64,000 nt of DNA from Guillardia theta CCMP2712. Its lineage: Eukaryota > Protista > Cryptophyta. Positions 9,051 to 38,837 of this stretch are shown piece after piece. Made by a program: the position numbers and the translations under genes. The stretch lies in NCBI RefSeq assembly GCF_000315625.1, contig NW_005434638.1, positions 526,121 to 590,120 of the forward strand, written 5' to 3'. Position 1 is the first letter of the stretch. Every line of letters begins with the position of its first letter. The notes below the pieces were generated by a model. The model was not told the origin of the DNA, did no database searches, and worked only from the letters and a program-made list of their open reading frames with translations.

Positions 9051-9947
9051 ACTGATCCTCTGGCTGCCACGAGCCTTGAGGACCTCATAGATGGCAGCAC
9101 AAGAATCATGCTTTGTCAATGGTTGTCCCTGCAACAGTAGAGCATTGCCGGATACCAAGGCTCTGAGTCTGCTAACCGTTGAAGCTCTTGAAAGAAAGTG
9201 AGAAAGTTCAAGTCTGATTCAGCCTGATGGGTTTGCGTAACGTGAGAGGAGAGCAGAGTGTGTCAAAGCAGAACCCAAACAGGCGTCCTGATGTCATACT
9301 TGAGGCCTTCAGGCCGAACTCGGAAAATCGATCCTGGCAGAACTGTGGGAGGACAAGGACCGTCACTCGGACTGATGATGCATTGAGACTTTCAGGAAGC
9401 CTCAGGCTCGGACATCAGAATCATCCGTGACTTCAAGGCTGTTGACGAGGATCCGTTCAAAAAGAATTTCGACGCGGGGCCCTCAGCAACAAGCCTCTAG
9501 GTTGTCGCCGGATCGGATTTAAGTTACACGGCGGTGCACGCTGCGGCTCCTCTGACTTACTGAAGATCGGACTGACCGGGCCAGTAACTATGAACCACGT
9601 GCAAGCCCACTCAGTACAGGGCCGACCCGGAATGTTCAAGCCCGGGCTCGCTGGCCCGGATCACCGAGTCACGCCCGGTGGCCGCCCGGAGGGCCGGCCG
9701 AGTCCCGGACACGGTCACCACCTTTACTCAACTAGTGGACCGTTCGGTGCCCGGCGGCGGGATGATGACGGTGTCACTGAACGGGCAGCTGATGAAACGT
9801 GGCAGTCAAATTCCCGCCTGAGATTCCAAATTGTACAATCAAAATTAAAAGCTGAATTTCAGTAGCGCCAAGGTGTAATTCTAACTTTTAGAGGAGATTT
9901 TCAGCATTAAGGTTCAAATCATCCTTTGGACCGGAAATAGCGCAAAA

Positions 9948-10330
9948 ATGGTAGCCAGGAGGCGCATGGCGCTGGCCATGGTGGCGATGGTATTAGGTGA
10001 GGATGAGAGAAGAGGAGGAATTCATGATCCCTTCGTTATTATTGCTGCATTTGCTGGGGAGCTGGTTGCGTCTTGATGGTTTTACTTGTGTGGGGTATGG
10101 TGGGACTGAAATTGTTCCGGTGACGTGTCGTGGTATGTTGGAAGCAGTCTGCTGTTTGCCGGTTGCGTTGTTCACGAACTGATATATCTCTGTCTATCTC
10201 TATCTCTATCTCCATCTCCATCTCTATTCCCGCCTCCTCCTCCATTTTCCCTCTACCTCCACCCCCACCTCTACCACGATCAATTAGTTTCTGTACCTTG
10301 AGTATTATCTATCTCACTCACTCACTCACT

Positions 10331-10365
<35 letters not shown>

Positions 10366-13300
10366 CCATCATCATCAGCATCATCAGCATCATCTAATCT
10401 TTCTCCCTTGCAGGGCTTGCAACAGCTCTAGAGACCGAACTCTGTGGCGACGCCATCTGTGGGACGTACGGAGTCAAGCCGTCCTTCGACGACTCGAACC
10501 GTCCTCCGAGCCAGCAGGTGTGTGCTCTTGTACCGAGTATTGAACGCCTCGAAATGGGGAAATGAACACGATTGATGATCCGATGAAGGTTCTTGGTCGG
10601 GCAACATGGACCGTGTTCCATACCTTTGCTGTGTATCTTCCAGACACCATGGGGGACGTGGAGGTGACGATGAAGCACATGGGTCGAGAAGAACGCATGA
10701 CGCCTCTGCTACAGGTCAAGATGTTCCAGAACTTGATCAACTCAGCAGGGTCACTCTACCCTGGGAAGGTTAGCAAGAGCTGGTGTAGACGCATGTGGAT
10801 GGATTGATTCTTTCCTCCCAGGGAGGGGAGATCGTCAACGAGATCTTGAACAACGATGTGTTTAAGAAGGAGATTCAGAGCATTAAGAACAGGGAGGACG
10901 GCATGCTCGTGGCATGGAAACGTGATGTCGAGATCTTATTTCGAACTCCTGCTCACCACCAGCGACGTTTGCAGTTCACAATGCCGTCACTGCTGCTGTC
11001 AAGCCCGATGCTGTTCCGTTTCCAGAGGCCTTGGGTGCGTTGAGATGGCGAACATTCACATGTCGCTCGTTGACGCCAAGCTCAGGGATCAAGCCGTCTA
11101 TGTTTGACCTCCTTAACAAGCCGGACAGCAACCACGTGCAGCTGGAGGTATGCGGAGCTTATCTTGTGATAGATGGTAATGCACGCTTAAATGCAGAATC
11201 TCAACATCGCGATGAAGAAGCAGATCATTGACGCTCTCACTTCTGTCAGTCTCTTCCAATGCTCATCTTGGTGCTCGTCTCATCTGTTTTCGCAGCGATG
11301 GAAGGCGACAGACGGCCTTATCAACAAGCATTGGTCCCAGAGAGACTTGCTCAACCTCCCTCCTGACCGAACCATGTTGGGCCGTGCGTTCTGGACTGTA
11401 CATGCAACTTCCTTGCTCGAACCGCGCTGACCCTGGAGATGACAGTACCTGCATACAACCTCCGTGTACCTTCCGCACAACCCAACAACCCAGCAAATCG
11501 AGGCCTTTAAGTCGCTATTCGACGCTGTCTATCATATCTTCCCCTGCCCTGTCTGCAGGTGTTTTTGACATGTTGGAGGGTGTCCCGCCTGTTTGACTTG
11601 TGCTCGCCGTAGAGGACACTTCAGGCTGTTCTATCCCGACGCTGTTCTGCAGAAGGAGGCAAAATCAGCTTGCTCGATGCCGTTTTCCTTGCCGCTGACG
11701 TTGTTGCAAACAGCATGAGGATATCAAGAGCAAGCACGATGCTATCATGTTCTCCTGGAAAAGTGAGCTGCTGCCGTCATCTTGCAAGGATGGCCCTCAC
11801 GCGTGTTTTGTTCTCAGTTCACAACATCGTCACCGCTGACGGCATCAACCGTGACGAATGGCCTGATCGCACCATGTACCCCAAGGACATGCACTTCAAT
11901 GTTTCTCAGGTCCACTCCTGATCCAACAGTCGATAACCGAAGTCTTTATCCTCCTCCCTCCATTGCTGCAAGATTCAAGTCTTCCAGCACACCCGTTCCC
12001 TGCCCTTGTCCGCTCCCCATGTTCTCTCTTCCCTCTTCACTTTCTCCTCCTGTCGTTCCTTCGCTCACAGCTATCATGCCAGTTCTTGATCCCCTCACCT
12101 CACGCGGAAGAAGATCAGATGAAGCTCAAGATCTGCCCGACGAAGACTGAGACTTGTCTGGTCCGCGAGCGAGCGTCTTGTGCAGTCCCGGGGTTGACGT
12201 GACGCACCAGGACAAGGACACACGCTTCGAAGTGATCGCTGATGTCGAGTCGAGGTGGAAGGTGAACCCTTGGAGCGATCTCATGCTGCAAGCTGATGTT
12301 GTCTGCTTGCAAACAGATCGAGGGAGGCATCGATCAGCCTCTCAAGGACGACTCCCCTGGTGCTGCTCCTGTCGATCCCTCTTGACGGGTCCTGACCGTT
12401 GCGCCTTCAGCTGCCTGCGATCCGCCCAAGGAGGGTCAGAAGGTGCTCAAGATGGAGGTAGAAAGGGACGAGGTGTGAAAGCGGAGGGTCCCGTGACCTG
12501 TCGGCAGATGTACATCATGGGCAAGTGCCCATGGTGCGCCAAGGCGATGGAGAAGATCGCGGATTCGATCAAGTGCGACTACACTTGCTCGTACCAGGGG
12601 CAAGAATTGACGGCGAGATTGGACTTCAATGTGCACATGGTGAGAAGGGACACGTGCGAGGGAGTGGAGATGTTGATGATGATGATATTGTTGTTGTTGT
12701 CGATGACGATTTTAAATGTTGTTGTTGTTGTTGTTGTTGATGATGATGATGATGAAATGATGATGGTGGTGACAATGACGAATGTAACAGGTTGGTCTCA
12801 ACAATGGAACTTGGGAGCAGCCGTGGCTTAAGGCCATTCACGGACCATCTGGTGACTCTCAACCTCGACTTTCATCAAACGCTTCACTCCTGGCATCTTC
12901 TTGTTTCCCTCCGTCTCTCTTGCTCTGCTTCTTTCCCACCTGTTTGCTCCCTAACGATCTGGCAGAGCTTGTTGGCGAGAGACTTGAGCTCTGTGCAAGG
13001 CAGCATTATGCAAAGGTCAGATGAGGACGAGAAGGAGGAGGGGTCGGAGGTAGAGGGGTCAGAGGAGGACGAGGAGAAGGAGGAAGGGTCAGAGGAGAAG
13101 GAGGAGGAAGGGTCAGAGGAGAAGGAGGAGGAAGGGTCAACGGAGGAAGAGGTGGTGGTGGTGGTGGCGGCGGCGGCGGTGGAGGATTTCTTACTTGGAT
13201 TTGTAGAACTATGAGTACGTCAAGTTCTTCCACTGCATGGACGAGAATGTTTCCGTGATTCCTATTCGAGCACCTGAATGTGCAAAGAAGGTGAGGGAGA

Positions 13301-14181
13301 GGAACGGGAGGAGACAAGATGATGAGTGTGGTACAGCACAACATGGACCTCGACCTGCTGGTTTCCTGCGCCAACATGGAGGTAAAAGTCTGAGGAGGAG
13401 CAGGAGATAGAGCAGAAGGGAGGGGGGGAAGGGGAGGGTGTGGAAGGTGAGGAACTGATAATGTGCTGAAGGGTGAGACTCTTGTCGCAACTTCTTATGG
13501 ATACGCGAGCTGGATGGTGAGGAGGAGGCAAAGAAACTCGTGGGAGTGACGAAGACGGCAGGGGATCGACATCACCCCAACGTTTGTGCTCAACGGCAAG
13601 AAGCACGTGCTCGGACTCCCATCCAACTTCTCAGGTGGAAGGAGCAGCAATGGGGAAGGAGAGAAGGGAGGGAGGGAGTGGAGAGGAGGGAGGGGAGAGG
13701 AGGAGGGAAGAAGCGAAGGGATGGAGGAAGGAGAAGGAAAAGAGGGAAGGAGGGAGAAGAGACGGGGGTAATGAGGAGGCAAGGTTGTAAAACTGAGCGC
13801 TAGATATCGTCTGCGAGCAACTGGCGACGACCTCGACCACTCTGGCGGAAACTTCTCTTTACAGCGGAGGAAGCCTCCGGATGGCGAGCGGGAGGTGAAG
13901 GGAGGGAGAGGATGCGGTAGAGACTGACGAGCTGCAGTGAGAAGAGGGACCTGGTGGTGACTGGCGTTGCCGTTGGTTTCATCACTATGGTGAGCGGGGG
14001 GAGGAAGGGGGAGGAGGCGGATGAAAGGGGTGGGAGAGCAAGGCAGGAGGAGGATGGAGGTGATGTTGGTTCGTACGATCATTCGCTTACTCGGAAACTT
14101 CAGGTTGTGATGGGAGCTGCGCTGGTCGTCATGCGGCTGAGGACGACCAAGGATGTTGAGCGACAGGCTCTCCTGCCTTGA
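9948..14181 (+). CDS. secretory-pathway pseudo-Erv + Erv/ALR sulfhydryl oxidase + GILT-like thiol reductase fusion with C-terminal TM helix
   Basis: spliced product: signal peptide MVARRRMALAMVAMVLGLATA; PPSQQVLGRATWTVFHT..YPGKGG..WKLHNAV; PPDRTMLGRAFWTYLHT..FPCPVCRGHF..WKIHNIV; YIMGKCPWC..IHGPSELVGERLELCA..FFHCM..ITPTFVLNG; TM; tail KDVERQALLP*. Confidence 0.85.
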
Positions 14182-14340: not shown

Positions 14341-17300
14341 TCACCACAAGGTTACACAAAGTCGCCATGGCGAGGAGAGGTGAGGAGGACGAGGCAGCGG
14401 ATTCCTGCGGAGCAAGTCAAGTAGACTTCGAGGAGGACATGGCATGAGAGCAGCACTAGACGATGAAGGAGAGCAAGAGGAGAGGGAGGGAAAGAAGAAA
14501 GAGGAGGTGAGGCAAAAGAAGAGGAGGGGGAAGAAAGAAGAAAGGGGGAGGGGGAAGATGAGGCGAACCTCGTCGAGCTGCTGAAGCTTCTTATTTAACG
14601 TGTGTAGGGATGATCTCATCTCGTCTTCGAGCTGCTTCATCTCCTGAAGGGAACATCACTCGTCTTGCTCCCCACCGTCCCCACCACCCCACCAAGCACC
14701 TCTAACACTTCCTCCTCTTCCTCACCTGATCTCTTCCCCGTCTCTTCTGACCCTTTGCCGCAACTTTCTCATGCCCAATGGGCCCCTGCTGCAGAGACGA
14801 TTGAGCGAGCGAATGGGGCGAAAGGATGGAGGAGAAGGAAAGGAGGACGACAAGAGCACGGCGAGATGAGGGAGGCTCGTTGGAGAAGGACAAGGGGAGG
14901 AAAGAGGATGGCAGCAACGAAAAGCAGGAGGCAGGAGAGGGGAGGGAAGAGAGCATTCTTTACCTCAGCTACACGCTCGATGGCCTTGTGCCCGTGTTTC
15001 ATCACGACCTTCTCTACGGTGACCGTGGATGCATGCTGCTGCGACAAGGAGCTTCGCTGGTCCTGTTGCCCGCCTCAACTCTTCGCCCTGCCCCACCCTC
15101 CTCGACCTCCTCCTCTCACCTTCACTACAACCGATCGGACTGGCAGAAATCCAGCAGGCTGGCCAATGCAGAGATCCCAGTGTGTCCAACCATACTGGCC
15201 GTTGATCGCTTTAGCGTCTTGACTCTACGGAGCAGGAAGAGCAGAGGAAGAGGTCAGAAATTCTTTCCTTTCCCAGGGCACGTCTACCTTGGTGCCGCAA
15301 GACCCCTCCACCGCGCACCATGCTGCGTCCTGATCCGCCCTCGTGCATTCCGTGTATGTCTTGTCATCGCAGATGACGCACCATCCCTGCTGCATGTATC
15401 CTCCCTCCAGCTGGCACGCCGAGTCCTTCAGCGGCTTCACCTTGCACAGCTCGGAAGGAGCGTACTTGAAGGGCAGGCGGCACGTGCAGCCATTCTGCGT
15501 GCGAACCTTGGGGATGACGTCGGGCAGCTGCGGCTGGTCGGTGCCAGCTATGAGCGGCCTCTGAGCACGGAGTGAGAGGTGCAAGTTGGTGGTCGAGGAG
15601 AGGAGAAAGAGGATGACGAAATGGGTGAAGTGAAGAATGGAGAATGGAAGTAGAGAGAGGAAGAGGAAGAGGAAGAGGAAGAGGAAGAGGAAGAGGAAGA
15701 GGAAGAGGAAGGGGATCAGGAAGAGAAAGGGGAAGAGGAAAGAAAAGGGGAAGAGTAGCAAGGAGAGAGGAGGACGAGGGAAGGAGGAAGCCAGACCTTC
15801 TCCGGCTGCTCCTTGCAGATGTCCCAGTGAGTCCATCCGAACCCTCCGGGTCCCGTGTGCGCCATCTTGCTGTTGCTCTTCTTCCCGCAGGCTCCCTTGG
15901 TAGCGCACCAGGCGCCTCCCTTGCTGCTTGAGATGTCCGTGCAGGACGTGTAGACGATACGGTTGCTGCTCTGGCCGAATACAGGCGGGGAGTACTCGAA
16001 GGGGAGCAGGCACTCGCACCCGTCGACAGTCTTCACAGGCTCCGGCTCCAACCATCCCGGAGGATCTCCGACGCACTTGTCCCACTGCATCGTCTCCCCC
16101 GATGCCGTCTTGCCCGTGTAGCCGCACGTCGACTCCTCCACCGGGCACCACCAGAAGTTCTCCATGCCGCTCTTGGTCTGGCCATAGCGGGTGCAGGTGG
16201 TGAGGGTAACGGAGTAGCCGAGGCCCGGGGGGGTGATGGTGTAGGGCATCTTACACTTGCAGCCTTGCAACGTGCTGACGGACTGGGAGGGGTAGGGCAT
16301 CACTCCCTGCTCGTGCGACTCCACCTGCTCCATGCAGTAGTCCCAGTGGTCCCACCCGTACCCCCTCGGCGTCAGTTTAGCGCGGGGGTCGTTACTCTGG
16401 ATGCCGCAGTTGGGCGACTCCACAGGGTCGATGGCGCACCAGGCCTGGTTGGGGCTGCCGATATCAGTGCAGCCCAAGTACGTCACCTCCTGTCCAGCGA
16501 GGCTCGAGGGCTGGAACACCCACGGCTGCTTGCACACGCAGCCCTGGCGGGTCATCAACTTGGGCTTGAGGGGAGCCAGGAAACCAGCAGGCTCTCCGAT
16601 GCACTTGTCCCACCTCGACCACCCGAAGCCTCCCGGCCCCTTGTACGCCTGCGGCAAGTCGCTCTTCTTGCCGCAGCTCTGCTCATTCACGGGGCACCAA
16701 GCCGCATGCATGCCGAACCTCTGGCAGGTGTTGAACTCCTTCACCTCGTGGTTGGTTTCCGCGTTGGCGATCTTGAAGGGGAACATGCAGGAGCAGCCAC
16801 TCTCCGTGCGGACGAAAGGCAAAGGGTGGGGCACAATGCCCTTGCTCAAGTCAGCCACCAGCTCCGTGGGCTGATACTTGTCATCGCAAATGTCCCAGTG
16901 CGTCCATCCATACTGCCCGGACTTGGTTCCTGCCTTGGGGTCTGCGGACGTCGTACCGCAATCTCCTTCAACCGCGCACCATGCCGTGCCCGGGCTGTCG
17001 ATATCAACACATCCGTTGTAGATGACCCTCTTGCCCCCGAGATCCCACGGCTCGAACGACCAAGTCGTCTTGCACGTGCATCCCTGAACAGTGGTGGCTG
17101 GCTTGGGCGGCAAGGCCAAGAAGCCCGCCGGTTCTCCCACACACTTGTCCCAATGGGTCCAGGACAGTCTCGAGTCGCCGTACTTGCTCTCTGGCGTTCC
17201 GGTGCGGCCGCAAGATCCTTCCGTGGCGCACCAGTGAGTGCCATGGCCGCCATGTAGGGTGCAGGCGTACAGCTCAAGCTTCTGCAGCCCCCCGAGCGAC

Positions 17301-18689
17301 CTGGGGTAGAACTCGAAGGGGAGCTTGCAGGTACAGCCCTTCTCAGTGACGACCTTAGGAGCGGGGGAGGGCAAGAACTTCTCATCGTGAGGAGCAGGCT
17401 GGCTCATGCAGAAGTCCCAGTGAGTCCATCCATACCCTCCCTCCTTCACTGTGGCCTTGGGATCGCTGGAGCTCTTGGGGGATCCAAACTTGCCACACTC
17501 CCCGTCCGCAGGGTCCACTGCACACCATGCCTTCCCTGGTGACCCAATGTCTGTACAGACGTCGTACTTGATGGTATGGTCCTTGAGCTCCGGGACGTCA
17601 TATTTGAAGGGCAAGAGGCAACGGCAGCCGGACACAGTCTTGATAGGAGGCCACAGGAAATCCTCCAGGGCCCTCCTGGCTGCAGACTTTCCACCGATCT
17701 GCTTGATCGCAACTCCCAGCCATTCGGACAGAACCTTGGCCTTCTGAGCGTGATAGTCGCGCTTCGAAATCACACCCTTCTGGTAGAGCCCGTCGATGTC
17801 ACGCAGTTCGTACTCCATCTGCATGTCGTCGGACGGCTTGTTCTGCTCCCCAGCCAACGGAGCGGCGATCCCCATCTTTGCGCTGCCCGAGTGACCAGAG
17901 CCAGGCAGGGACGAGCCAAGAATGACTCTCCTGAGCATCGAGATGACATAGACCTCCACCTGATGATGAACGCGGGCCCTTATCCTCAGGAGCAGTGGCA
18001 CCAAGAGCCTGGATCGCATCTTCTTCATCTGTTCAGCATTCAAGTTCTTTCGCAGCCCGACGTCGCGGACAGTCTCCTTCACGCGCTCGTGAGCCTCGGC
18101 GTCCAAGTTCTTGATGAGAGGAGCTTCAATCCCTTCCACGATGGGCAAGATGTAAGGGTTCTCAGTGGACTTGCCGCTCTCAGCCCACTCCAGCATCTCC
18201 TCCACATACCCCGCCTTCATGTTGCGCAGGAGGGATACAAGGTTCTGAGCATAGGACTCTTGCACCTTGGGGTCAGAGATGGGAAGAAACGAAGGAGGAA
18301 GCTTCAGACCCTTGTACGGCCTTGTCCCATCCTCCCCCACCGCCTCAGCCATCTTCTTGTCATAATCCTCCTCATCCTCAGCCGTCCACTCTTGTCCTGG
18401 CATCCTGTAGATCGAAGGAGGGGCTGAACCCTTGCCTTTGACTGAAGCTAGCTTTCCCTCCAGGGAGTGAAGGGTCTTCTCGATCTCCGCCGCCCTCTCA
18501 TTCAAAAACTTCTCGTCGAGCTCAGCTGGGAGATCCGACGGCCTCTGGACCACAAGAACGAGCCCGACGATAAGGACTAGAGGGCCGGCAATGTATAGGG
18601 GGCTCAAGCTCCTCTGTGAACACAAGTCAGTCAGCTGATCGAAGTCGGAATGAGTTCCATCTCACCGGCGAAGCTTTGAGACCAGGCAT
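14341..18689 (-). CDS. type II membrane protein with SHOCT-like motif and 8 FN2-like Cys/Trp repeats; 3' end approximate
   Basis: N-terminal TM (IAGPLVLIVGLVLVV); LRDIDGLYQKGVISKRDYHAQKAKVL; repeats T.xGCxC..P[FWY]..C..[AW]WC..CG..WTHWD.C. Confidence 0.8.
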
Positions 18690-25763: not shown

Positions 25764-28700
25764 TTACCCCATCGAGGGGAAGGTAGCATTGTTGGGGCTA
25801 GCTCGAAACGGATCTGAGAAGCCGTGTTCCTTGTAAGACACGTACCACCTGTTCACAGTCTGGTCAGCTGCTGCTGGAAGGAGCGAGCGTTGAGCTCTTA
25901 CCTCGCCACTTCCTTGCGGGAGAGAGTGTAGTCCTGGTCGAGATCCCAAGTCTTGAGGATCCGCAAGGAGTCGACCATTCGGCTCCCTGCAGGAACAGAG
26001 TCACAAGGGTTGAGAGGCACGAGCAGAGTCTCTGACCGAAGGAGGAATGCAGCATCGTGTGGAGCTCCGAATGGGAGAGACGGAGGTTCTGGTCCTGGTC
26101 GTACAGGTCGTACAGCTTCTGCACTTCCTTCTGCGATTCATCCACTAACAAGGACATGTCAGGAAGGCAACGAGTTAGCAAGATGCCTCGCTCTCTTACT
26201 TTCCCTCTCATGTTCATCGCGCTCCATGTATCTCTCCTCCTCTTGCTCCTCTTGCTCCTCTTGCTCCTGGGACTGCATCGATGCCCCTCCGATCGTCACT
26301 GCTTCCGCTGCTTCCCCGGAGGATTGAAAATCAAGCGCTGGAGAGGAGGATTCTGCCGCCTCCTGACGTCCACCGAGGGCAGAGTAAATTCCCTCCGCCT
26401 CGTCCTCGCTCACACAAATTTCCTCCTGCCGTCAACTTGACAGTCAGCAGCGGACGAAGCATGCGGTCATGGCTCACCGCAGGCAGTTGGGAGCTGCTAT
26501 ATCCCATGCAGCGAGCAGAAACATTCCCAGCTCGCACTGGAAGGGCCGGGGCCGCGTGCTGTTGGGCCTGCTGCATCTGCCCCAGGAGCTTCCCGATGTC
26601 CTCGAAGGAGGTGACAGGAAGCATCTGCATCGGCTGCATGCTCTGTGCCGCCACCGCCTGCCCTCCGGCCCCTGGCTGGACCTGGTTGGTACGGAACTGA
26701 AACCCTGAGATTTTGAGCTGCGGTAGAGGATGTAAGGCAACGATGTGGATGCGGGAGGAAGTGAGGAGAGGAGGATGGAAAAGAGGAGGAGGATGCCTGG
26801 GAGGAGAGAGCATGGTGGAAGCTCTCAAAAAGGGTGAGGCCGAAGAAGAGAACGGGGTGCAGCGGGGAGAAAGTTTTGATGGCGATGGAGGGTTGGGAGA
26901 GGATGGAAAGTGAGCAGAGGAAGGAGACTACTGAATAGATCAATGAAAGCATGGGATGGCAGAGGGATATGCGGGGAGTTTGGGTTTGCTTGATCCACCT
27001 GGCCTGTGTTAACGTTCCCGAGAGCTTCTTCGATTTTCTGAGCAGATAAGGAGGAGAAGGAGGAGGAGAAAAGGTTAGATAACAAACGGGAGGGAGGGGA
27101 GGGCAGTACCTGTTTCATAGCCCCTATGGTCTCCCAGATGTTTCCCATACCTCCCGCCGGCAGTTGTATCTAAATAGCAAAAAGATCACATTATCCTGAG
27201 CCTGTATAGCTGTCTCCCCCTCCTCCCTCTCCCCCTCCTCCCTCTCCTCCTCCTCCCTCTCCTCCTCCTCCTCCCTCTCCCTTCGTCTCCTCCTCCCTCC
27301 CCTCCCTCTCCTCATCCTCCTCCTCCTTGAACACTCACACCCTCTGCCCTCTGCCCTCTGTCTGCTAACCCGCACCTGGACGTTGAAGGTGTTGGTCTGA
27401 GTCCCGATGATCTCTTGCATTGCGTGCCGATCCCTCCAGGCTGGCAGCAGACCCAATCGACGTCTCTCGCGCTTCTGAAACAGATGCTGCAGGAGCGAGG
27501 TGAGGTGGCGGAGGAAGAGGAGCGCACCGACCTGCAGGCTTGTACCGACTCGCTCCTGGTCGATTGGAGTCTGGGGGAAGAGGGACAGAGTCAGAGCAAG
27601 GGGAAGGCCAGGTAGAGCAGTGGGATGAACGTGGAGAGAGCAAGGAGGAACGTGAAAGACAGGATGTTGTTCGCAGAGCACCTCGAACGTGTCTCTTGCG
27701 TTCTGAAACTCCAAGTCGAGATGGGAGTACTTGAGAGACGCTTGCAACGAGGCACAACTGACAGGCAGCAAGGAAACAGTCAGAATCCTTCACGCAGGAG
27801 CCAGGACGCTCTTCTCTCCTACCTCCCCAGCATCTGCTTCGCCTGCTGTAGCTCCTCCAGGGCCTTCACTCTCAGCGTCAGGGTCAAGTCAGGATCCCAT
27901 CGCAGCATCTCACCATGGACGCGTTGCGGTCAAGGCAGAGGGTGGGCCTTGGCAACGTGCAGTCGTAAAGGCCGTCGGTGACGTCCGATGACTCGTTTTG
28001 AACAGCATGAAGCTCCTCCTCCTTCATCGATATCGTCTGGCATGAACTCTCCCCATCCTGACTCTGCTCGTCATCTCGTCCATGCTGGTGATGGTGGTGG
28101 TGCTGCTGCTGCTGATGATGATGATCGTAAAAAGGATTCGGAAACTTTGGGAGGGAGGAAAATCCGGCAGAGGAAGTGAAACGATCGCCAGGCAATTGTT
28201 GCAGCGGGAGAGGATGCCCTTCAGTTGAGAAGACGAAGGAGCCGTTGAGAGCCCAGTGACGAGGAGTGAAGAGAAGGTAAAGATATCTGCAACAAGGGGG
28301 CATGATGTGAGGAGGCGAAGACCAGGTTGAAGGAGAATGGATGGAGGAAGGGAGCAAGGGAGAGGAGAGCAGGGAAGGAGGAGGGTAAGGAAAGAGTCAG
28401 CGAGTGAGGGAGGGAGGGAGGGAGGGAGAGATGCAGGGAGGAGGGAGGGAGGGAGGGAGGGAGGGAGGGAGGGAGGGAGGGAGGGAGGGAGCAGTACTTG
28501 AGGGTCTCGGAGAGGAAGAAGGAATCCATCTTATCTTGCAGTAAGTGAGTTTCCACATCCTCGATCGCTGCGTGACCACAAGGGACGCGCGTCTGCTCGA
28601 GGGAGGAGAGGATGTCTCGTCCCACCTGTACATAGTGGGGATCGCGCGTAGCCTGGTAGAGGTACATGGTGCTCTCGATGAGCTCAGGACGAAGAGGATA

Positions 28701-30655
28701 TGACCTGGACGGGAAGCAGGAGGAGGAGGAGGTGAAGCAGGAGGAGGAGGAGGAGGTGAAGCAGGAGGAGGAGGAGGGAGAGTGGCAGGAGGAGGCAGGA
28801 GAGGACATGGAGGAGGAGACAGGTTTGGCAACAGGATGAGGAGAGGGGAGAAGAAGGGGAGGGAAGAAGAAGGGACAGTCATTCTCTCATTCAACTTCGT
28901 GGCATGGTAGCAGCTACCTCTGTCCTTGTTGTACCCGTCCATCGGCCAGGTTGTAACCTTCAGGAGTGTATCCATACCTGAGAACAGAAGAACATTATCT
29001 CCTCTTCCTTGTAGTTTCCCAGTCTTCCTTTCTGCCTCCCCATCTTCCACCCTTAGATACCCTCCCCTCCCCTCCCTCTCCCCTCCCTCTCCCCCTTCCT
29101 CTCCCCCTTCCTCTCTTCTCCCTCTCCCCTCCCTCTCCCCTCCCTCTCCCCTCCCTCTCCCCCTCCCTCCTTCTTGCTGTTCTGAGTTTCTCATTCACCT
29201 CCTCCATACACCATAAAAAGCTGAATGCGTCTCGCTCGCGTCCTTCAAGTTGCCAGCAATGACCTGCTCACGTCAATCAGCACGAACTTTCATTTTCACC
29301 CGCCGCCAACCCCCTCGTCCTCTTGTTCTCCTCGCTACCCTTCCCTTCCCCTCCCTGCTCATGCTACGCACCACGTCCTCCTCCCTTTCAACTCCGCGTC
29401 CCCGCTCCCTCTCCTCCCACACACCTCGATGGCCGGCCAGAACGACTGCAGGCTGTTGTAGATTGGCCACACGAGCTGTGCCGACTCCATGTTCACGTCC
29501 ACGTACCATGGCGACTTCGCCAGGAGCGCCTTGGCGGAATGGTACGCCTGCTGGAAGAGGAACAGAAACTCGTCCTCCCCGTAGAGGATGTAGCTCTTGA
29601 TCAAGTACTCGTAGAAAGAGTCGATTGACGTTCCCACCCCGCTGTCCTTGTGCGTCCACTGCCCCGTCATGATGTCAAGATGCGCTCCGATCAAACCCAT
29701 GCTCGATCTCCTTGACCACAGGGCTAGCAGGGACCTCTTTGCCACCCGCTCAAACTCCCCGCGTCCTGACAGCCTTGACAGCATGCCGAACTCCAGCATG
29801 AGAGTCCCAGCGCATGCTGAGGACGTGATGGTCGTCTCCCCCACGGCAACCCCGCTGCAGGACACGTCAGACGCTGGAGGTGCCCGAGCAGGAGGGAGAG
29901 AGGGAGGGAGGGAGGGAGGGAGGGAGGGAGGGAGGGAGGGAGGGCAAGGACACATATTCAGCGCATGAGTTAGGTGAGAGGAGCGTTGAGGGCTGGTACA
30001 GGCACGTTCATCCTGCCCCTCCTCACCTTCTGAGGTTGATGGTACCGTAAGGAATGCCCGTCGGAGTGTCAAAGGCGGGGAGGAGGCGTTCCCCGAGCTC
30101 GAGAGCCTTCTTGAGCAGGAAGCCGTCGTAGTCGTCCATGAGCTTCAGCTTCGGATCTCGAGCGAGGAGGTGAGAGGAAAGAAGTCCGCCGAGCACGCGG
30201 ATGTTTGTTTCGAAGACAGACACCTGAACGTCCTTGTCGAAGGAGAGATGCTTCTTCAGCAGCCCCACCGCTCTCGCAAACTCCGTCCTGTTCCCGAGCA
30301 CAGCCAGCATGTCTAAAGAATCCACGAGCGTGAGCGCGTAGGAGCCGAAGTTGTCGATGAAGCTGCAGGAGAGCGGGAGAAGCTCGTCATGCGGGAAGGC
30401 ATGCATTATGTAGTTGTCGTATGCATGGTAGAACATCCTCTTCACTCTCTTCCGCAACTGATCCAGCTCCTGCTCGCTTCCGGGAGGAGCAGCAGCCGGA
30501 GTGAACGAATCCTTCAGGTCTCTCAACAACTTGGCGAGAGGGTCCGGTCGAGTCTCATGAACGTCCTTCCTGTCATGGAGATTCCTTCCCGCTCCCGCTA
30601 GGTTAAGGAGGAGGAGGAAGGCGAGGAAGGAGAGGGGATGCCTAGCAACTCGCAT
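25764..30655 (-). CDS. GH47 alpha-1,2-mannosidase, EDEM-like, apparently with a long C-terminal extension ending in an EF-hand pair
   Basis: signal peptide; MFYHAYDNYIMHAFPHDEL, VSVFETNIRVLGGLLSSH, AFDTPTGIPY, IDSFYEYL, YPLRPELIES, DKMDSFFLSETLKYLYLLF, FSTEGHP. The GH47 core (28200-30655) is secure; the link to the distal exons is by manual splicing. Confidence 0.85.
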
Positions 30656-30887
30656 GTCCGTCCTCAGTCACTTGTGACTGTTCATGCAGCTGGATGCAGT
30701 TCATAGAAGCCAGACATGCCCTGGCATGAGGCGTTGAGGAGGTGAAGAACGAGACGCACACTTCCGAGGGGGGGAGGTCGATGCAGGTTTGGAAGGACTC
30801 GTTCTTCTAGCTGTCTCTGACAAGTGGGAGAGGAGAGGTGGCAACAGGGAGGCGGGTGGGTAGATGGAGGTGGAGAGGAGGAAGAGA

Positions 30888-32810: not shown

Positions 32811-33017
32811 TATAGAGTTTTCGCATGAATGCAGAGGGAGGGAGGGAGGGAGGGAGGGAGGGAGGGAGGGAGGGAGGGAGGGAGGGAGGGAGGGTAGGGG
32901 GGGGGGGGGGAAGGGGGGGATGGATTGAATGATCGGGAGAAGCTATGCAGATTGAGCAGAGAAGATCTTTGCATGTACATGTTGTAAGAACGGAACCCAC
33001 CATTTACTTTTTTGCAG

Positions 33018-36000
33018 ATGCAAGTGCTTGGATGTTTGCGGGGAAGCGGTCGGTTGACTCGCTGCCTTGTGCATCAATACCGTTCACAAATCTTGTATGA
33101 ACCTTCCTTGCGGTCATCTGCACACTGCAAGCTTCTCAACCTTTGGGGAAAAAACATCTCATCAGATAACCAATGGATTAATTTGCAGAGACTGGATCAA
33201 GAGTACGTTGAAGCTAGAAAGGCGTTGAGAGACATTCGGAGAAAGGGGACTCGCGAAGAAATAGTGGTGGCCGAACGCGAGGTAGCTGAGATGAGGCTTG
33301 ATGCAGCCAGGGCCAGGGGGAACCCGGTCGAGATAGCAGGGGCGGAGCAGGACCTGGCCCAGGCGAGGCTTGATGCAGCCAGGGCCAGGGGGAACCCGGT
33401 CGAGATAGCAGGGGCGGAGCAGGACCTGGCCCAGGCAAAAGCCGCGACAGTAGAAGGAATGGCCCAGGCGAGGCTTGATGCAGCCAGGGCCAGGGGGGAC
33501 CCGGTCGAGATAGCAGGGGCGGAGCAGGACCTGGCCCAGGCAAAAGCCGCGACAGTAGAAGGAATGGCCCAGGCGAGGCTTGATGCAGCCAGGGCCAGGG
33601 GGAACCCGGTCGAGATAGCAGGGGCGGAGCAGGACCTGGCCCAGGCGAGGCTTGATGCAGCCAGGGCCAAGGGGAACGCGGTCGAGATAGCAGGGGCGGA
33701 GCAGGACCTGGCCCAGGCGAGGCTTGATGCAGCCAGGGCCAAGGGGGACCCGGTCGAGATAGCAGGGGCGGAGCAGGACCTGGCCCAGGCAAAAGCCGCG
33801 ACAGTAGAAGGAATGGCCCAGGCGAGGCTTGATGCAGCCAGGGCCAGGGGGAACCCGGTCGAGATAGCAGGGGCGGAGCAGGGACTCACTCAAGCACAAG
33901 ATCGAAGCCGAATTCTCCGGGCAAGCATTTCTCCTATATTTGCTTTTGAAGGCAATTACTTGGATGGAGTGTAGATGCACGGCTGATGGCTGTTTACAGG
34001 TTTACGTGCTCTTGCCAAGAAAAGTATGAAGGACCGTGCAGTTACAAATCTGAAGGAGTTCCTGCGCAATCGGCTGAGCGCAGAACAACATTTGGAGTCC
34101 GGCAATCGAACACCGACCGAGGTTTTCAGCTCATTGAATCCGATTGACAGAGTGGTGAGTATGAGTAAGACCAAGGATGAGGGTCCTTACACCTGCTTGT
34201 TGGAGGCGTGTTCAGGAAGTGGAAAATCCATGTGTGCTGCGGATTATTTTGTTCGCAACCCTGATACATGTTTGTACTTCTTGTTTGGCCACAAACATAC
34301 ACAGCTCATCTACCAGGAGGTGTCCGAGATAACAAATCTTATCAACCGTGCTTTGGACATTGACTTGTGGAATTGTATTGGGGAGTATACCTCGAACCAG
34401 GGGGAGGCTGCCGCGCTTGTTGCTATCAACATCAGTATGAAGCGAAGTCAAGGGTGGCATGTACTCGGAGTGCTGGGGTTTCTTCTGAATCAGACAGAGG
34501 AGGTTAAACCTGTCACTGTCGAACAAGCGAAGAGCTGGCAGCGGAATCTGTGGGTTTTATTAGACGAGGCCATCCCCTCACATAGAGAAGAGTGTCACAT
34601 CCTATATCCAATCGGCAGGTTGGTACTGTTGAAGCGAATCTTGCGGAATGCCAGGATACATTGTATGATGCTGGGAACGAATACTCTAATCATGAACTTT
34701 AACGACGCAGCTCAAAGATCGCCAGACAGTCGGGATGGTGAAGAGAAGCTACTCTGCGTCACACATCGAGCTCTTCCTCCTATCATTCCTCCATCGCATG
34801 ATCACTTGGCATGCCTCGAAAGGATCTTTGGGGAGAAAGAAGCCTCTGTTTTGCTGGATAATGTGAATCCATGGCTTTGCAGATTGTTCATGGTTGAAGC
34901 CATGGCAAAAGCAACTGAAAGCTATGAACCTGCCCATGCTCTACGTAAGTTTGCTTCTCCAATATTGGAGACGGTCAAGGCGGTAAAAAGTAGCTTCAGC
35001 AAAGCTTCTTTATACTGTATGTTTCAGATTGCAGCCCACGAATCTTTATCTCAGGTGCACCTGTCGACGAGCTTTGCCTTGCTAAATATTTGGCCGGGCA
35101 ACCCACCAACAAGAGGGGATGATAGCTGCATAGTAACACTGGCAAGAGAAGCATCAAACCCAGACAAGATTACTTTGAAATCTACATCACTTTATGAGAT
35201 AACGACCAGATTTGCACCAGCTCATGTTGACCCATTGACTCCGGCCATATGTGCAGGCAATGGACGGCCTTTTGGAGAGGACAAATCTGCGCTGTTAGTC
35301 TTACAGGAGATCTATAAGCAGCAGTCTTTTAAGAATGACTCAACAGCCGTGGATGCGTGGAAGCGAGATGGTGGTACGTTGGAGTCTTTTGGAGGAGTGG
35401 TCATGATGATCAGCAGTTGGTCTGAGCCTCAAGACATTCTCAAGAACATTGCTTTTCATTGTGGCAGCAAAACGGAGACGAGAAGTGTGAATGAAATCCT
35501 TGAGACGATTGCGGTCGGGAATCAATTCGAAGATTTCTTTGAGATTTTAACGTCCTGCATCCAAAATCTGCTTCCGTTTTCAGCTACAAGTTCAGGAAAA
35601 GGAAGTGCGGCTTATGGGTACTATACGCGTGCGACAGACCAGAACCAGGTTGACGCAAAGTTTCAAGGACCTGCTCATGAGACGAGAAAGAGAATGATTG
35701 GAAGGGCAGAATTCAAGAATAGGAGCACTGCTGTACCTACATCGGAGTGCCGTAACATTGTTGGCAAGCTGCTTACCCCTGAGGTCGATCTTGCTTTGTT
35801 CATGATGTCCGAGATGAAGCAAGGGAGCATTGAACAGATCGTGCAGGAGTGTAATACCGGGACAGAGGTGTTGATTTTACATCTCAGAGATAATAGTCAC
35901 TGGCGAGCTTGTATTGTTGACCAGCGCAAGGATGAAAGAGAGGCCGAAATCAGGGGTCATAGGAAAGTTTTGATGATAGTGGAAGTAGGTCTGACGACCG

Positions 36001-36056: not shown

Positions 36057-36339
36057 CATGGTACATTGATTAAAACTGACTATGATACTCTGAGATGTAA
36101 TGAGGAGGGGAGAAGGCCTTGAAGAGGGGAGGGGAGGAGGGAGAAGGGAAGGGAGGAGGGAGGAGGGATGTGAAATAGGGTTTTACCTGCTCTTCTCTCA
36201 GGTAGCAGACTGGAGAAGTCTTGGCGAAGTCGCCCAACCACCGTGACATCAGATAACCAAGGGAAGAGCCTGGACTAAACTCTACTGAGTCACGTATTGT
36301 GACTAGCCCGGCCGTTCCGAGGGCCCAGGCTAGTATGAT

Positions 36340-37011
36340 TATTATTCAACGGTTGTGACTCCCAAGGTTTTTTCCCCTTCATGGGTCCATTTACCCTCCG
36401 ACCAGCATGCAGCGAGTGTTGCCTTCATCAAGCTCGAATGTGCGGACCTGCGGAGCTTCTCGGTCGAGACGGCGGGAGTGGTGGTAGGCGGCATACCTTT
36501 GGGCTCTAGAGACTTCATCAGAAACTGGCTTCAGGAAAAGCTTGCTGCTCTTGACGATGACCTCCACAAGCTGGGATCGCTGAGTACCTTACATCCCTTT
36601 GCCTGCAAACACCTTATTCGAGCTACTCACATCCCAACCTTGCAGTATTTCTTACGGGGCATCGATCCTGAGCTCGTGACTGATGCATGCGCTGCTTTCG
36701 ACCAGAGTGTTCTCCTGGAGCTGGGCAAGGCTTTTGATTGGCCATTGCCTGACAGAGGCTCGGACGTTGACTTCGGTCTGGCCAGCTCTTCATTCTTGTC
36801 TCCCCTGGAGTTTGCCTTCTTCAAGCGTCAGCTTCCGTACCAGGAGGGGGGGGATGGGTTCACACCTCAAGCGGGGGTCAGTTTATCAGCCTATTACAGC
36901 GCCACGGCCAGCTTCTTACAATGGAGCGCTACCCTACCCTGTGTGCAGACCTGGACATTCTCCACCCCTCCCCTGTTCTCTCGCCTGGATGGTACCCTTG
37001 TTAGGGATTGA
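36340..37011 (+). mobile_element. non-LTR retrotransposon fragment (RT thumb/post-RT region, CRE-like)
   Basis: GVVVGGIPLGSRDFI, LQYFLRG, AFDQSV, QLPYQEGGDGF, SAYYSA motifs typical of RLE-type LINE ORFs. Confidence 0.7.
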
Positions 37012-37308
37012 CAATCCTGATGATGTGCTTCGACTTTGTGAATTTGAACCGTTAACAAGCAAACAGGAACCTCAACACAACCGCGCTCACTGAACGTATA
37101 GAAAGTTCGGATCCATTTTATTCGACCAAAACCTACCAAACCAACCAGACCGACCGGATAAGACAGCTCAGCGGCTAGTTGACTGAAGTATTCGTATCCG
37201 CTTACGTAACCCCTAACATACGCTCCCAAGCGCATTATCATCTGAGAAACATCTCTATGAACTTCGCTGATCATTAAGATACTGCATAACAAGAAAACGG
37301 CAGCCACC

Positions 37309-38307
37309 TCAAGTCATTTCAATTGAGTAGCGCAGAGTGCACTTTGAATGCTGAGAATCTTCGTCGGTATCCTCCGCTGACTCATCGTCGTACGAAACCA
37401 CATGATGCCTTGACCTGTCATTCCCATACGCATCGGTCGTCAAATCCATGGACTTAGCCTCTCGATACAATTCTGGCAACAAACTCCCAATACTCAAAGT
37501 CTTGTTCACATTTTGCCTCTCCAAGTCACTCAACAACTTCATGACGAAACTCGCGGTCACCTCATTGAACAAATTCTGTGCGAAATACCGTTCAAGACCA
37601 AACCTTGTGCAAGCTGTCTCGACTTGCCCTTGTCCATGATATAACAGCATGCAACAAGCAATAAAATGATTTGCTAAAGCTGAAAACCTGTTGACAAAAT
37701 CCGAAGTCTTTTCCTCTGACCCTTGTATGGTACTTTGAATCTCACCCAAAATATACTGCGAGTGCGACAACGACAAACACTCCTTCACCAGCAACGATTT
37801 GAATGATTCCCAAGTACCTTGTGTGGAAATTAATCTATCCTCGCCACGCAATGTTTGCAACCAATTCCTCACACGATTACCCTCTAATGTTGCAGCAATG
37901 TCAACCTTTTGATCTGGAGGAATTCTTTGACGCTGGAATTGAAACTCAAGCTCCCCAAACCAACTTGCAACGAAATATTCTAGAGTCACTTCTCCATCAA
38001 ATCGAGAAATATCCTTGGAATGAAATTTCACTAGGGAAGACTGCTGCTTTACATGCTGACTTGACATGTCGTTCGACATGCTCGTATTATTTTGCTTGCA
38101 TATTGCATCAGCCCCTCCTGGTTCCTTGATCGGAAGGTATTGAACTGCTCCTGATTCATTTAATCTGAACCGTTGCATCATTTCCTCGAACATTTTTTTA
38201 TTTTCTTCCCTAAGAACAGAGATTTCCTGTTTTGTCTCAACGAGCTCTCTTTCCTTACGAAACATCACTTCCTTGACGAAAGCTTCATACTTTACTTGCA
38301 TGTCCAT
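37309..38307 (-). CDS. solo Ty3/gypsy-type Gag (capsid)-like protein with N-terminal coiled coil
   Basis: ISRFDG..WFGELEFQF..KVDIAATLEGNRVRNW..TWESFKSLL..QGSEEKTSDFVNRF matches the retrotransposon gag pattern; no pol or LTR seen. Confidence 0.7.
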   Translation of the reverse strand: MDMQVKYEAFVKEVMFRKERELVETKQEISVLREENKKMFEEMMQRFRLNESGAVQYLPIKEPGGADAICKQNNTSMSNDMSSQHVKQQSSLVKFHSKDISRFDGEVTLEYFVASWFGELEFQFQRQRIPPDQKVDIAATLEGNRVRNWLQTLRGEDRLISTQGTWESFKSLLVKECLSLSHSQYILGEIQSTIQGSEEKTSDFVNRFSALANHFIACCMLLYHGQGQVETACTRFGLERYFAQNLFNEVTASFVMKLLSDLERQNVNKTLSIGSLLPELYREAKSMDLTTDAYGNDRSRHHVVSYDDESAEDTDEDSQHSKCTLRYSIEMT

Positions 38308-38363
38308 TGCGAGTTGCAATTCTTCTCGCAACCGTTCTTGTTTGCAGGAAGATTCTTGGCGCA

Positions 38364-38765
38364 ATGTGCAAGATCCAGAACAAAATAGCCAAGGCCGGCG
38401 AAAAGCACGAGATCAGCGTTCGTATCCAGAATCCAGTAAGGATTGACGTTAAGCAGACCATTACCATCAAGACCACATTCAGGTGTGCACGCACCATCCG
38501 TGCACAGAGCAACGTCTACAACTCCGAACTGCCTCCAGAAACACCCGTCGACCCCAAACCTCAACGGATCCGCATGTATTACACTCGCATTGAAGGCACG
38601 GACCACGATGGCAACCCTCTGATCACCGAGGGAAAATGGAGGCTTGAGTCGCTAGAGCGATTCTCCAAGAAAGAAAATTCCCTTGAGAGCGATTCCGGAG
38701 TGGATCTCGATGAGCTTTTTGAGACCGATCTTGATGATTCATCATCTTCGTGCGCAAAACCATGA
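38364..38765 (+). CDS. hypothetical intronless protein with acidic tail
   Basis: ATG at 38364, head-to-head with the Gag-like ORF. Confidence 0.5.
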   Translation: MCKIQNKIAKAGEKHEISVRIQNPVRIDVKQTITIKTTFRCARTIRAQSNVYNSELPPETPVDPKPQRIRMYYTRIEGTDHDGNPLITEGKWRLESLERFSKKENSLESDSGVDLDELFETDLDDSSSSCAKP

Positions 38766-38837
38766 GTTTTCGATGCAGCTTAAGAGAGCGGCTGGTGAGC
38801 AGTAGGAATAGACCACGCATGATGATTGACAACCCCA

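What the first reader, a model, noticed from the sequence alone, without database searches (positions are those of the whole stretch)
9948..14181. 'Reverse QSOX': pseudo-Erv + Erv + GILT-like fusion with an endolysosomal sorting tail
Seen: the many short exons splice into signal peptide, a CGDAIC motif, an Erv-like bundle with YPGKGG (10757-10768 plus next exon) in place of YPCxxC, a second Erv domain with intact FPCPVC (CPVC at 11545-11556) plus the W/H/HN FAD-binding residues, a GILT-like thioredoxin fold with CPWC (12526-12537) and HGPSE..LC, one TM helix, and the tail ERQALL (14158-14175). Known: QSOX is Trx followed by a degenerate Erv and an active Erv forming a single-chain pseudodimer; GILT is normally a stand-alone lysosomal reductase; [DE]xxxL[LI] is an AP-adaptor sorting signal. 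Inference: an independently assembled QSOX analogue with reversed domain order, in which GILT is coupled to a flavin oxidase for disulfide formation or H2O2 production in an acidic compartment such as a vacuole or secretory organelle. I know of no described protein with this architecture, and the ORF track hides it.
Basis: partly seen in the sequence, partly recalled or inferred. Interest (0 to 1): 0.88.

Follow-up and report, generated by a model that had tools for sequence, protein, structure and literature searches.

The report
Algal back-to-front disulfide-making enzyme
A cryptophyte alga makes one spliced transcript that joins two flavin-oxidase (Erv) domains, a GILT-like thioredoxin domain and a membrane anchor; our literature searches found no description of this layout, which likely makes disulfide bonds late in the secretory pathway, a second and likely independent route to what the enzyme QSOX does.

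Summary
The gene is real. It has 27 exons (9948-14181, +) and encodes 627 aa. In each of three runs, one spliced contig of about 1.97 kb crosses the Erv/GILT junction in frame. The same layout occurs in at least five named cryptophyte genera.

Order: signal peptide, CX4C, Cys-less pseudo-Erv, active Erv (CPVC), GILT-like thioredoxin (CPWC), TM helix, ExxxLL tail. It is not a QSOX: domain order is reversed, there is no CT-CXXC, and the Erv is of Erv1/ALR type. It is not a canonical GILT: the signature cysteines are missing.

New here: relatives with a single Erv plus GILT (Roombia and unnamed eukaryotes) indicate that the fusion came before the Erv duplication. The N-terminal CX4C is kept in 31 of 33 clusters and looks like an Erv shuttle disulfide. 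Copy 1 kept CX4C and lost CxxC; copy 2 did the reverse. All 37 fused clusters have a dithiol CxxC, against 9 of 123 motifs in unfused relatives.

Best reading (0.55): a relay from substrate through CPWC, CX4C, CPVC and FAD to O2 in a post-Golgi lumen. Activity, coupling and location are untested.

The parts
9948..14181 (+). Whole gene: 27 exons, 26 introns, 1884-nt CDS, 627 aa. Exons: 9948-9996, 10414-10517, 10589-10663, 10715-10768, 10822-10921, 10975-11034, 11086-11147, 11197-11244, 11296-11397, 11446-11558, 11613-11658, 11714-11762, 11818-11909, 12083-12160, 12211-12261, 12317-12359, 12411-12457, 12508-12639, 12791-12851, 12966-13015, 13207-13290, 13337-13381, 13472-13516, 13562-13634, 13804-13894, 13938-13989, 14104-14181
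9948..10427 (+). Predicted signal peptide, aa 1-21, split by intron 1. The next 30 aa are acidic (5 D/E, 2 K/R), unlike a plastid transit peptide
   Evidence: hydropathy; charge and upstream in-frame stop; no signal-peptide predictor was run
10443..10460 (+). CX4C (C27-C32), proposed shuttle disulfide on a flexible N-terminal tail
   Evidence: 31 of 33 clusters; pLDDT under 50 in the homologue model
10497..11319 (+). Pseudo-Erv unit, about aa 45-192. YPGK (10757-10768) replaces CxxC; W58, H62, W126, H129, N130 and R185-W186 are kept
11359..12328 (+). Active-type Erv unit, about aa 206-365: W217, H221, CPVC (11545-11556), H258-F259, W286, H289-N290, RxxY 305-308, R359-W360; extra Cys pair C336/C343
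   Evidence: Pfam; conservation
11659..11713 (+). GC-AG intron (intron 11)
   Evidence: 55-nt skip in 3 runs
11910..12082 (+). Intron 13, at the place where the two-gene reading would split the locus; spliced in frame (NVSQ|FLIP)
   Evidence: 173-nt skip, GT..AG, 80 letters on the shorter side, in X2, X4 and X5
12440..13826 (+). GILT/DsbA-like thioredoxin domain, aa 386-562: CPWC (12526-12537), HGPSELVGERLELC (12839-12994), Thr-Pro loop (13574-13579), seven further invariant Cys
   Evidence: Pfam GILT in homologues; fold; conservation
13951..14133 (+). Predicted single TM helix, aa 590-612, split by intron 26
   Evidence: hydropathy up to 2.39; helix in homologue model
14158..14175 (+). ERQALL, an acidic dileucine motif in the 15-aa predicted cytosolic tail
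   Evidence: 18 of 21 homologues; the 3 misses lack the C-terminus; shuffled tails average 0.67 of 18

Best explanation
The locus is one spliced gene for a 627-aa protein with a Cys-less Erv domain, an Erv domain with CPVC and a GILT-like thioredoxin domain with CPWC, and it likely works as a membrane-anchored, self-sufficient sulfhydryl oxidase in a post-Golgi (endosomal, vacuolar or secretory-organelle) lumen. Shown: the transcript, the domain content, and conservation of the three cysteine pairs and the tail. Predicted: the two Erv domains pack as a single-chain pseudo-dimer. Inferred steps: (1) CPWC takes two electrons from substrate thiols; (2) the flexible N-terminal CX4C carries them to CPVC of the second Erv domain, as shuttle disulfides do between subunits in Erv1/ALR/Erv2 dimers; (3) CPVC passes them to FAD and then O2, giving H2O2; (4) ExxxLL recruits an AP adaptor. 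Inferred history: an Erv1/ALR-type domain with its shuttle fused to a GILT-like domain; a later tandem duplication turned the homodimer into one chain, with copy 1 keeping the shuttle and copy 2 the active site.
For: Single spliced contig across the junction in 3 runs. Full-length homologues at 48-66% identity in one chain, named from Hemiselmis, Guillardia, Baffinella, Teleaulax and Cryptomonas. CPVC-type and CPWC cysteines are invariant in 21 of 21 homologues, with the FAD-contact residues listed in PMC3616962. CX4C lies 13-32 residues before the first Erv in 31 of 33 clusters, in single- and double-Erv forms alike; 0 of 23 double forms have a Cys pair before copy 2; 0 of 31 pseudo-copy motifs contain Cys. 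N-terminal CX4C and inter-subunit shuttling are known in Erv enzymes (PMC4019985, PMC3509050, passages). The Erv-Erv module of homologue P0051 folds at pLDDT 85, pTM 0.85, with a low-confidence tail, and aligns over both domains to QSOX1 3lli at Z 13.7, rmsd 4.0, 220 aligned. Fused thioredoxin domains are dithiol in 37 of 37 clusters (35 by pattern; P0103 and P0245 by eye), against 9 of 123 motifs in 74 unfused tandem clusters. Tail motif in 18 of 18 complete homologues. Weak hint: the VIA alignment to the interdomain-disulfide QSOX 3t58 starts at the model's first CX4C cysteine against chain residue 75, next to the thioredoxin cysteine 76 (that role is recalled).
Against: No activity, cofactor or location data. 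The full-length model does not fix the thioredoxin domain against the Erv module (pLDDT 65, pTM 0.53). The tail's position rests on residues with pLDDT under 50 and on range end-points only. Z 13.7 is near the level that helical bundles can reach without kinship (note). Fusion need not mean coupling: recombinant Arabidopsis QSOX showed no interdomain transfer (PMC3616962, Discussion). Two apparently complete stand-alone thioredoxin proteins (P0099, P0140) group with the fused forms and also have CxxC. GILTs are described as reductases (PMC7017176, passages), and mammalian lysosomes need reduced thiols (PMC12435214, passages), which sits oddly with an oxidase there. The dileucine motif is not canonical in most single-Erv forms. 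All counts are among kin and are not independent.
Confidence: 0.55

Rival explanations
1. Direct QSOX-style relay: CPWC docks straight onto CPVC, and CX4C is structural or a side entrance for small thiols.
For: The Erv-Erv module is predicted to resemble the QSOX module; a low-confidence linker joins the two halves; fused domains are dithiol.
Against: The QSOX features tied to direct docking are absent: no CT-CXXC in 0 of 46 active copies and no Cys loop before the active Erv helix 1. A conserved CX4C on a flexible tail and its complementary loss fit a shuttle better.
Confidence: 0.15
2. Uncoupled halves: the GILT-like domain reduces or isomerises disulfides using luminal cysteine, while the Erv module separately oxidises small thiols and makes H2O2, for instance in food vacuoles.
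For: GILTs are reductases (PMC7017176, passages). Plant QSOX showed no interdomain transfer in vitro (PMC3616962). Stand-alone relatives P0099 and P0140 group with the fused forms. The full model has no fixed interdomain pose.
Against: The fusion is kept at about 26-29% identity across distant forms, and the resolving cysteine tracks with fusion (37 of 37 clusters vs 9 of 123 motifs). An oxidase tethered to a reductase would tend to drain it (inference).
Confidence: 0.15
3. The same relay, but working at near-neutral pH in the Golgi/TGN or at the cell surface (scales, periplast, secreted proteins), with the dileucine acting as an AP-1/AP-2 recycling signal.
For: [DE]XXXL[LI] binds AP-1, AP-2 and AP-3 (PMC4114066, passages). 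QSOX works in the Golgi and outside the cell (PMC3616962). The GILT signature is not met, so acid adaptation cannot be assumed.
Against: The best named structural match of the domain is lysosomal GILT (Z 12.0, tied with ScsC at 11.8). The motif is kept in 18 of 18 complete tails while flanking residues vary.
Confidence: 0.15

Closest known systems
Quiescin sulfhydryl oxidase (QSOX)
   Same: One secretory-pathway chain with a thioredoxin-fold CxxC, a pseudo-Erv and an active Erv, often with a C-terminal TM; the predicted Erv-Erv module aligns to 3lli at Z 13.7, rmsd 4.0, 220 residues.
   Different: Order reversed; the thioredoxin domain is GILT/DsbA-type, not PDI-type; no CT-CXXC or backstop Cys loop; 10% identity; profile E 0.006-0.38 against QSOX vs 5e-16 to 2e-10 for the best Erv1-type hits; the pseudo-copy is still 35% identical to its twin and keeps most FAD residues; an N-terminal CX4C is present.
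Erv1/ALR/Erv2 single-domain sulfhydryl oxidases (Pfam PF04777)
   Same: Best sequence and local structure matches (AtErv1 2hj3: E 5e-16; rmsd 1.4 over 98 residues); CxxC, W/H/HN and K/RxxF/Y residues; a shuttle-like Cys pair on a flexible tail.
   Different: Duplicated in one chain; no CX16C structural disulfide (no Cys at those places); fused to its own thioredoxin-fold partner; signal peptide, TM and sorting tail.
GILT / plant OSH1 (Pfam PF03227)
   Same: Passes the Pfam cut-off in 6 of 6 homologues (25-30 bits vs 22.4); mouse GILT 6nwx is the top structural match of the domain (Z 12.0, rmsd 3.9, 163 aligned) and a profile hit at E 3e-6.
   Different: The signature CQHGx2ECx2Nx4C is reduced to HGPSELVGERLELC; membrane-anchored; fused to an oxidase.
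Baculovirus Ac92/P33
   Same: A separately evolved pseudo-Erv/Erv pair (PMC3616962, Discussion); Z 7.1.
   Different: No thioredoxin domain; viral; weak structural match.
Tandem GILT/DsbA-like proteins of Myxococcota and Deltaproteobacteria (uncharacterised)
   Same: Best-scoring unfused hits of the family profile (E down to about 4e-31); same M-x-x-C-P and HG-x-x-E motifs.
   Different: Two thioredoxin domains, no Erv, mostly monothiol CxxG/A/S (114 of 123 motifs); named as bacterial only for P0104's cluster and 17 loci.

Membership tests
QSOX | N-terminal Trx domain, C-terminal Erv domain (PMC3616962) | tested here: not met
   Order is Erv-Erv-Trx in the window and in all fused homologues
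QSOX | Pseudo-Erv directly upstream of the active Erv, forming a pseudo-dimer | tested here: met
   Sequence repeat; predicted module pTM 0.85, aligned to 3lli over both domains. Prediction on a 65%-identical homologue
QSOX | Third, C-terminal CXXC (CT-CXXC) after Erv helix 4 | tested here: not met
   0 of 46 active copies have CxxC in the next 35 aa
QSOX | [quoted passage not shown] | tested here: not met
   No Cys between C32 and C252 in the window; 0 of 23 double forms have a close Cys pair within 45 aa before the active copy
QSOX | PDI-type Trx domain | tested here: not met
   Pfam gives GILT only, no Thioredoxin family, at E up to 0.1 in 6 of 6 homologues; fold matches are GILT, ScsC and DsbA types
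QSOX | Interdomain Trx-to-Erv electron transfer | not testable with these tools
   Needs enzymology
Erv/ALR (PF04777) | FAD-proximal CxxC with W/H, H-F, HN and K/RxxF/Y residues | tested here: met
   Second copy: CxxC 21/21, W217 and H221 19/19, H289 21/21, R/K305 19/21, F/Y308 21/21; the second Asn of helix 4 is Thr; Pfam cut-off passed
Erv/ALR (PF04777) | Shuttle disulfide on a flexible tail (CXC, CX2C, CX3C, CX4C; PMC4019985) | tested here: inconclusive
   Motif, place and predicted flexibility fit; shuttle function not shown
Erv/ALR (PF04777) | FAD binding and O2 use | not testable with these tools
   Needs purified protein
GILT | CXXC/S active site in a thioredoxin fold with helical insertion | tested here: met
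   CPWC 21/21; Z 12.0 to 6nwx; Pfam cut-off in 6 of 6 homologues
GILT | Signature CQHGx2ECx2Nx4C (PMC7017176) | tested here: not met
   Reads HGPSELVGERLELC: H, G, E and the last C kept; two Cys and the Asn absent
GILT | Thiol reductase activity at low pH in lysosomes | not testable with these tools
   Needs assay and localisation
AP-adaptor cargo | [DE]XXXL[LI] in a cytosolic tail after a TM helix | tested here: met
   ERQALL starts 9 residues after the predicted TM; 18 of 18 complete homologue tails. Adaptor binding not tested

The most novel reading that the evidence does not exclude
A second, independently built class of self-sufficient eukaryotic disulfide catalysts: Erv1-type oxidase, shuttle and GILT-like oxidoreductase in one chain. 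It would turn the GILT fold from a lysosomal reductase into an oxidase for acidic compartments, and living single-Erv and double-Erv forms would record how an Erv homodimer becomes a pseudo-dimer by complementary loss of shuttle and active site. The pseudo-copy may still bind a second, non-catalytic FAD.
Probability: 0.4. Interest if true: 0.85.

Novelty: new variant of a known kind. Interest (0 to 1): 0.72.

Why it matters
QSOX is the described fusion of a thioredoxin fold with an Erv domain, and how its pseudo-Erv/Erv module arose is left open in PMC3616962 (Discussion). This family appears to have reached the same design from other parts and in the other order. It also keeps both the single-Erv and the duplicated state, so the step from homodimer to pseudo-dimer can be studied directly. 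If it works at low pH, it would be a disulfide-forming enzyme for endolysosomal or secretory organelles, where GILT-fold proteins are known as reductases, and a possible tool for making disulfides in acid. It gives Cryptista, with or without plastids (Roombia is recalled as plastid-lacking), a redox enzyme that databases label only 'Sulfhydryl oxidase' or 'hypothetical protein'.

Tried and rejected
Two genes: rejected by the in-frame spliced joint and by one-chain homologues.

My first acceptor for intron 13 (12071, adding four residues with a Cys): rejected.

QSOX or canonical GILT membership: rejected (see membership tests).

Plastid or periplastid targeting: unlikely, since the mature N-terminus is acidic and a relative occurs in Roombia. 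No predictor was run.

Widely annotated family: no Atlas cluster with both Pfam families among the rows shown for two queries. The Atlas lists only clusters of 50 or more, so this blank is weak.

Viral origin: one scan of viral contigs with P0118 found none of 5 pattern hits to be a relative. This single scan is weak.

Redox partner of the bacterial relatives: 83 ORFs from 14 of the 17 loci had no DsbB, VKOR or DsbD family at E 1e-5. Uninformative.

Third homologue search (alignment A3) returned only 4 proteins and no new named taxa, so the taxonomic range of single-Erv forms is open beyond Roombia.

No RNA holder on record was listed; raw reads of X18 were too few.

No model of thioredoxin-Erv docking was obtained (no verdict), so that step is untested. 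A wide VIA-align search was not obtained.

No tree with QSOX, Erv1, Erv2 or canonical GILT sequences was built, as none was held. Independence rests on motifs, profile scores and single-Erv relatives.

No paralogue in the window; no whole genome was held.

Three look-ups of earlier findings returned nothing.
Full report
1. Observation. The stretch is an intron-rich eukaryotic gene. Reads were laid on 9700-13690. Three runs from three studies (X2, X4, X5) each hold one contig of 1967-1968 nt with depth only on exons and 23 joints, of which 15 were shown. These match introns 1-15, with one correction: intron 13 is 11910-12082. The protein is therefore 627 aa. The joint that links the Erv half to the thioredoxin half is GT..AG, in frame, with 80 letters on its shorter side. 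The contig's running length at exon 21 agrees with the model, and it runs on into exon 25. The fourth run (X18, raw reads) gave 5 reads and no information. The runs are 'RNA' by the tool's guess only, but they skip the introns.

2. Family. One exon retrieved 10 of 10 candidates as relatives, five with both PF04777 and PF03227 on record. A full-length query gave 23 proteins among 7062 candidates. Named members are Hemiselmis andersenii, Guillardia theta, Baffinella frigidus, Teleaulax amphioxeia and Cryptomonas curvata, at 48-66% identity to the model. Two Hanusia phi fragments are closer (P0002, 96% over 48 aa; P0221). So the window is a cryptophyte; I did not pin the species. Some homologues hold Erv and thioredoxin in one called ORF on contigs of 10.7 and 80.7 kb (P0004, P0019), which suggests uninterrupted genomic frames; I did not check their DNA. 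Databases call the proteins 'Sulfhydryl oxidase' or 'hypothetical'.

3. Anatomy. The two Erv copies are 35% identical over 91 aa and 30% over a 165-column unit ending in RW..G; both have a phase-1 intron at WK|xHN. Copy 2 has CxxC in 21 of 21 homologues and the FAD contacts named in PMC3616962, except that the second Asn of helix 4 is Thr. Copy 1 has no Cys at that place in any of 31 motif reads but keeps W58, H62, W126, H129 and N130, so a second flavin is not excluded. The C-terminal domain passes the Pfam GILT cut-off in 6 of 6 homologues, has CPWC in 21 of 21, a Thr-Pro loop and seven further invariant cysteines, but lacks the GILT signature given in PMC7017176. The tail has [DE]xxxL[LI] in 18 of 21 homologues; the three misses lack the C-terminus. 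Shuffled tails give 0.67 of 18 on average, at most 5 in 2000. Kin are not independent.

4. Structure, predicted on homologue P0051 (65% identical). Full length: pLDDT 65, pTM 0.53, with no fixed pose between halves. VIA-align put residues 44-367 on the QSOX1 pseudo-Erv/Erv module (3lli, Z 13.4) and 384-568 on mouse GILT (Z 12.0, rmsd 3.9, 163 aligned), tied with ScsC (11.8). Foldseek ranked ScsC, YjbH, DsbA and FrnE types first and GILT 33rd. The Erv-Erv module alone: pLDDT 85, pTM 0.85, residues 1-23 under 50; 3lli Z 13.7, rmsd 4.0, 220 aligned, 10% identity; AtErv1 rmsd 1.4 over 98 residues, 24% identity; Ac92 Z 7.1. Foldseek found no match at E 0.001 or better for this model; QSOX led at 6e-3. 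The tool warns that helical bundles can reach Z near 13 without kinship.

5. History. The profile search (2027 hits at E 0.001, best 150 listed) found relatives with a single CxxC-bearing Erv followed by the same thioredoxin domain: Roombia truncata P0083 and unnamed P0082, P0090, P0095, P0103, P0112, P0118 (profile-profile E 1e-70). A distant double form also exists (P0079 group, about 29% to P0095). In a tree of 41 Erv domains, all 16 pseudo-copies lie on one side of a branch (100/99), with a long-branch warning for P0079 and no root. In a quick tree of 51 thioredoxin domains, all 20 fused ones lie on one side (SH-aLRT 94, unstarred) together with four unfused rows, two of them fragments. 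The simplest reading is fusion first, duplication later; loss of a copy in the single forms is not formally excluded. Profiles score Erv1/ALR far above QSOX (5e-16 vs 0.006; 2e-10 vs 0.12), and QSOX's CT-CXXC and backstop cysteines are absent. This supports an origin apart from QSOX, without an outgroup tree.

6. Mechanism. The key clue is CGDAIC. A CX4C precedes the first Erv in 32 of 33 clusters by pattern; one match (P0033) is spurious and one miss (P0168) has an aberrant start, so 31 of 33 are real, the window's model included. No Cys pair precedes the second copy in 23 double forms. Erv shuttles include N-terminal CX4C and act on the other subunit (PMC4019985, PMC3509050). In a fused dimer the shuttle of copy 1 would serve the active site of copy 2, leaving copy 1's CxxC and copy 2's shuttle redundant. 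That is the loss pattern seen. The VIA range against the trapped QSOX 3t58 starts at the first CX4C cysteine opposite residue 75; this is a weak hint from a low-confidence segment. Coupling is supported by the resolving cysteine: 37 of 37 fused clusters have CxxC (35 by pattern, two by eye), against 9 of 123 motifs in 74 unfused tandem clusters. An Erv has no NAD(P)H domain and passes electrons to O2 or cytochrome c (PMC4019985, passages), so coupling would make the thioredoxin domain an oxidant (inference). Against this: plant QSOX showed no interdomain transfer (PMC3616962), stand-alone CxxC relatives exist (P0099, P0140), and docking is untested. The compartment is inferred from the tail alone; the motif binds AP-1, AP-2 and AP-3 (PMC4114066).

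7. Novelty. Five searches found no description, judged from listings: Erv/GILT/fusion/sulfhydryl oxidase, at least 3 of 4 terms (46 papers, 20 listed); GILT/Erv1/cryptophyte, at least 2 of 3 (38, 20 listed); Evr1_Alr with GILT (0); sulfhydryl oxidase with Guillardia (1, PMC6115763, listing only); Erv/pseudo-dimer/thioredoxin/fusion/protist, at least 4 of 5 (35, 15 listed). The library lacks most subscription papers. Seen: PMC3616962, parts 1-4 of 7, the Discussion and term passages, with 0 hits for GILT or Guillardia in the main text; its supplements, which list sequences, were not opened and could bear on this. PMC3509050, PMC4019985, PMC7017176, PMC4114066 and PMC12435214: passages only. Recalled, not from a call: that Roombia is a plastid-lacking katablepharid within Cryptista; that residue 76 of mouse QSOX1 is in the thioredoxin CxxC; the traits of transit peptides.

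8. Verdict. The architecture is real, expressed and conserved, and we found no description of it. It likely works like QSOX without being one. It is rated a new variant of a known kind because single-chain thioredoxin-fold/Erv oxidases are known and every domain is known. Interest 0.72; 0.85 if acid-pH oxidase activity through the shuttle is shown.

Noticed in passing
window 15716-18661 (-): A 981-aa open frame with many Cys/Trp repeats, fibronectin type II-like (PF00040, E 2e-9, 37.7 bits), tail to tail with the gene. A disulfide-rich protein next door; no link shown.
   Followed up: partly
window about 28221-30667 (-): Glycosyl hydrolase family 47 (EDEM/mannosidase-like) gene in several exons.
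   Followed up: partly
window about 36300-44100: A run of long, intron-poor frames with no Pfam match, beside Cys-rich ephrin-receptor-like/TNFR-like repeats at 41133-43051 (-). It may be an inserted mobile or virus-like element; this is an impression only.
   Followed up: partly
window 47003-48577 (-): Cytochrome P450 in one open frame of 524 aa (E 1.5e-87), unusual in so intron-rich a genome.
   Followed up: partly
window 32988-33974 (+): Protein with tandem repeats of about 21-28 aa (helical, Ala-rich), followed by a 689-aa frame with a P-loop-like motif and no Pfam match.
   Followed up: no
window 61343-62344 (-): Weak Yippee/Mis18 match (E 1e-4, under the cut-off). The single-Erv protein P0112 has a similar-looking N-terminal extension, possibly a gene-model artefact; not compared.
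   Followed up: no
L001-L017; P0102, P0104 and about 70 more clusters: A large family of tandem GILT/DsbA-like proteins, mostly monothiol, bacterial where named (Myxococcota, Deltaproteobacteria), some fused to RCC1 repeats or kinases, with weak vacuolar-sorting-receptor TRX matches. No shared redox neighbour.
   Followed up: partly
P0071 (Cryptomonas curvata): Carries two CX4C motifs before the first Erv domain.
   Followed up: no
P0069 vs window model; P0066, P0067, P0033, P0075: The named Guillardia protein is only 55% identical to the window model and has a CDKGVC variant, so cryptophytes likely hold two or more paralogous subfamilies.
   Followed up: partly
P0218 (Gocevia fonbrunei), P0099, P0140: Stand-alone GILT-like proteins: the amoebozoan one is monothiol with a TM and groups with the tandem family; the other two are dithiol and group with the fused forms.
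   Followed up: partly
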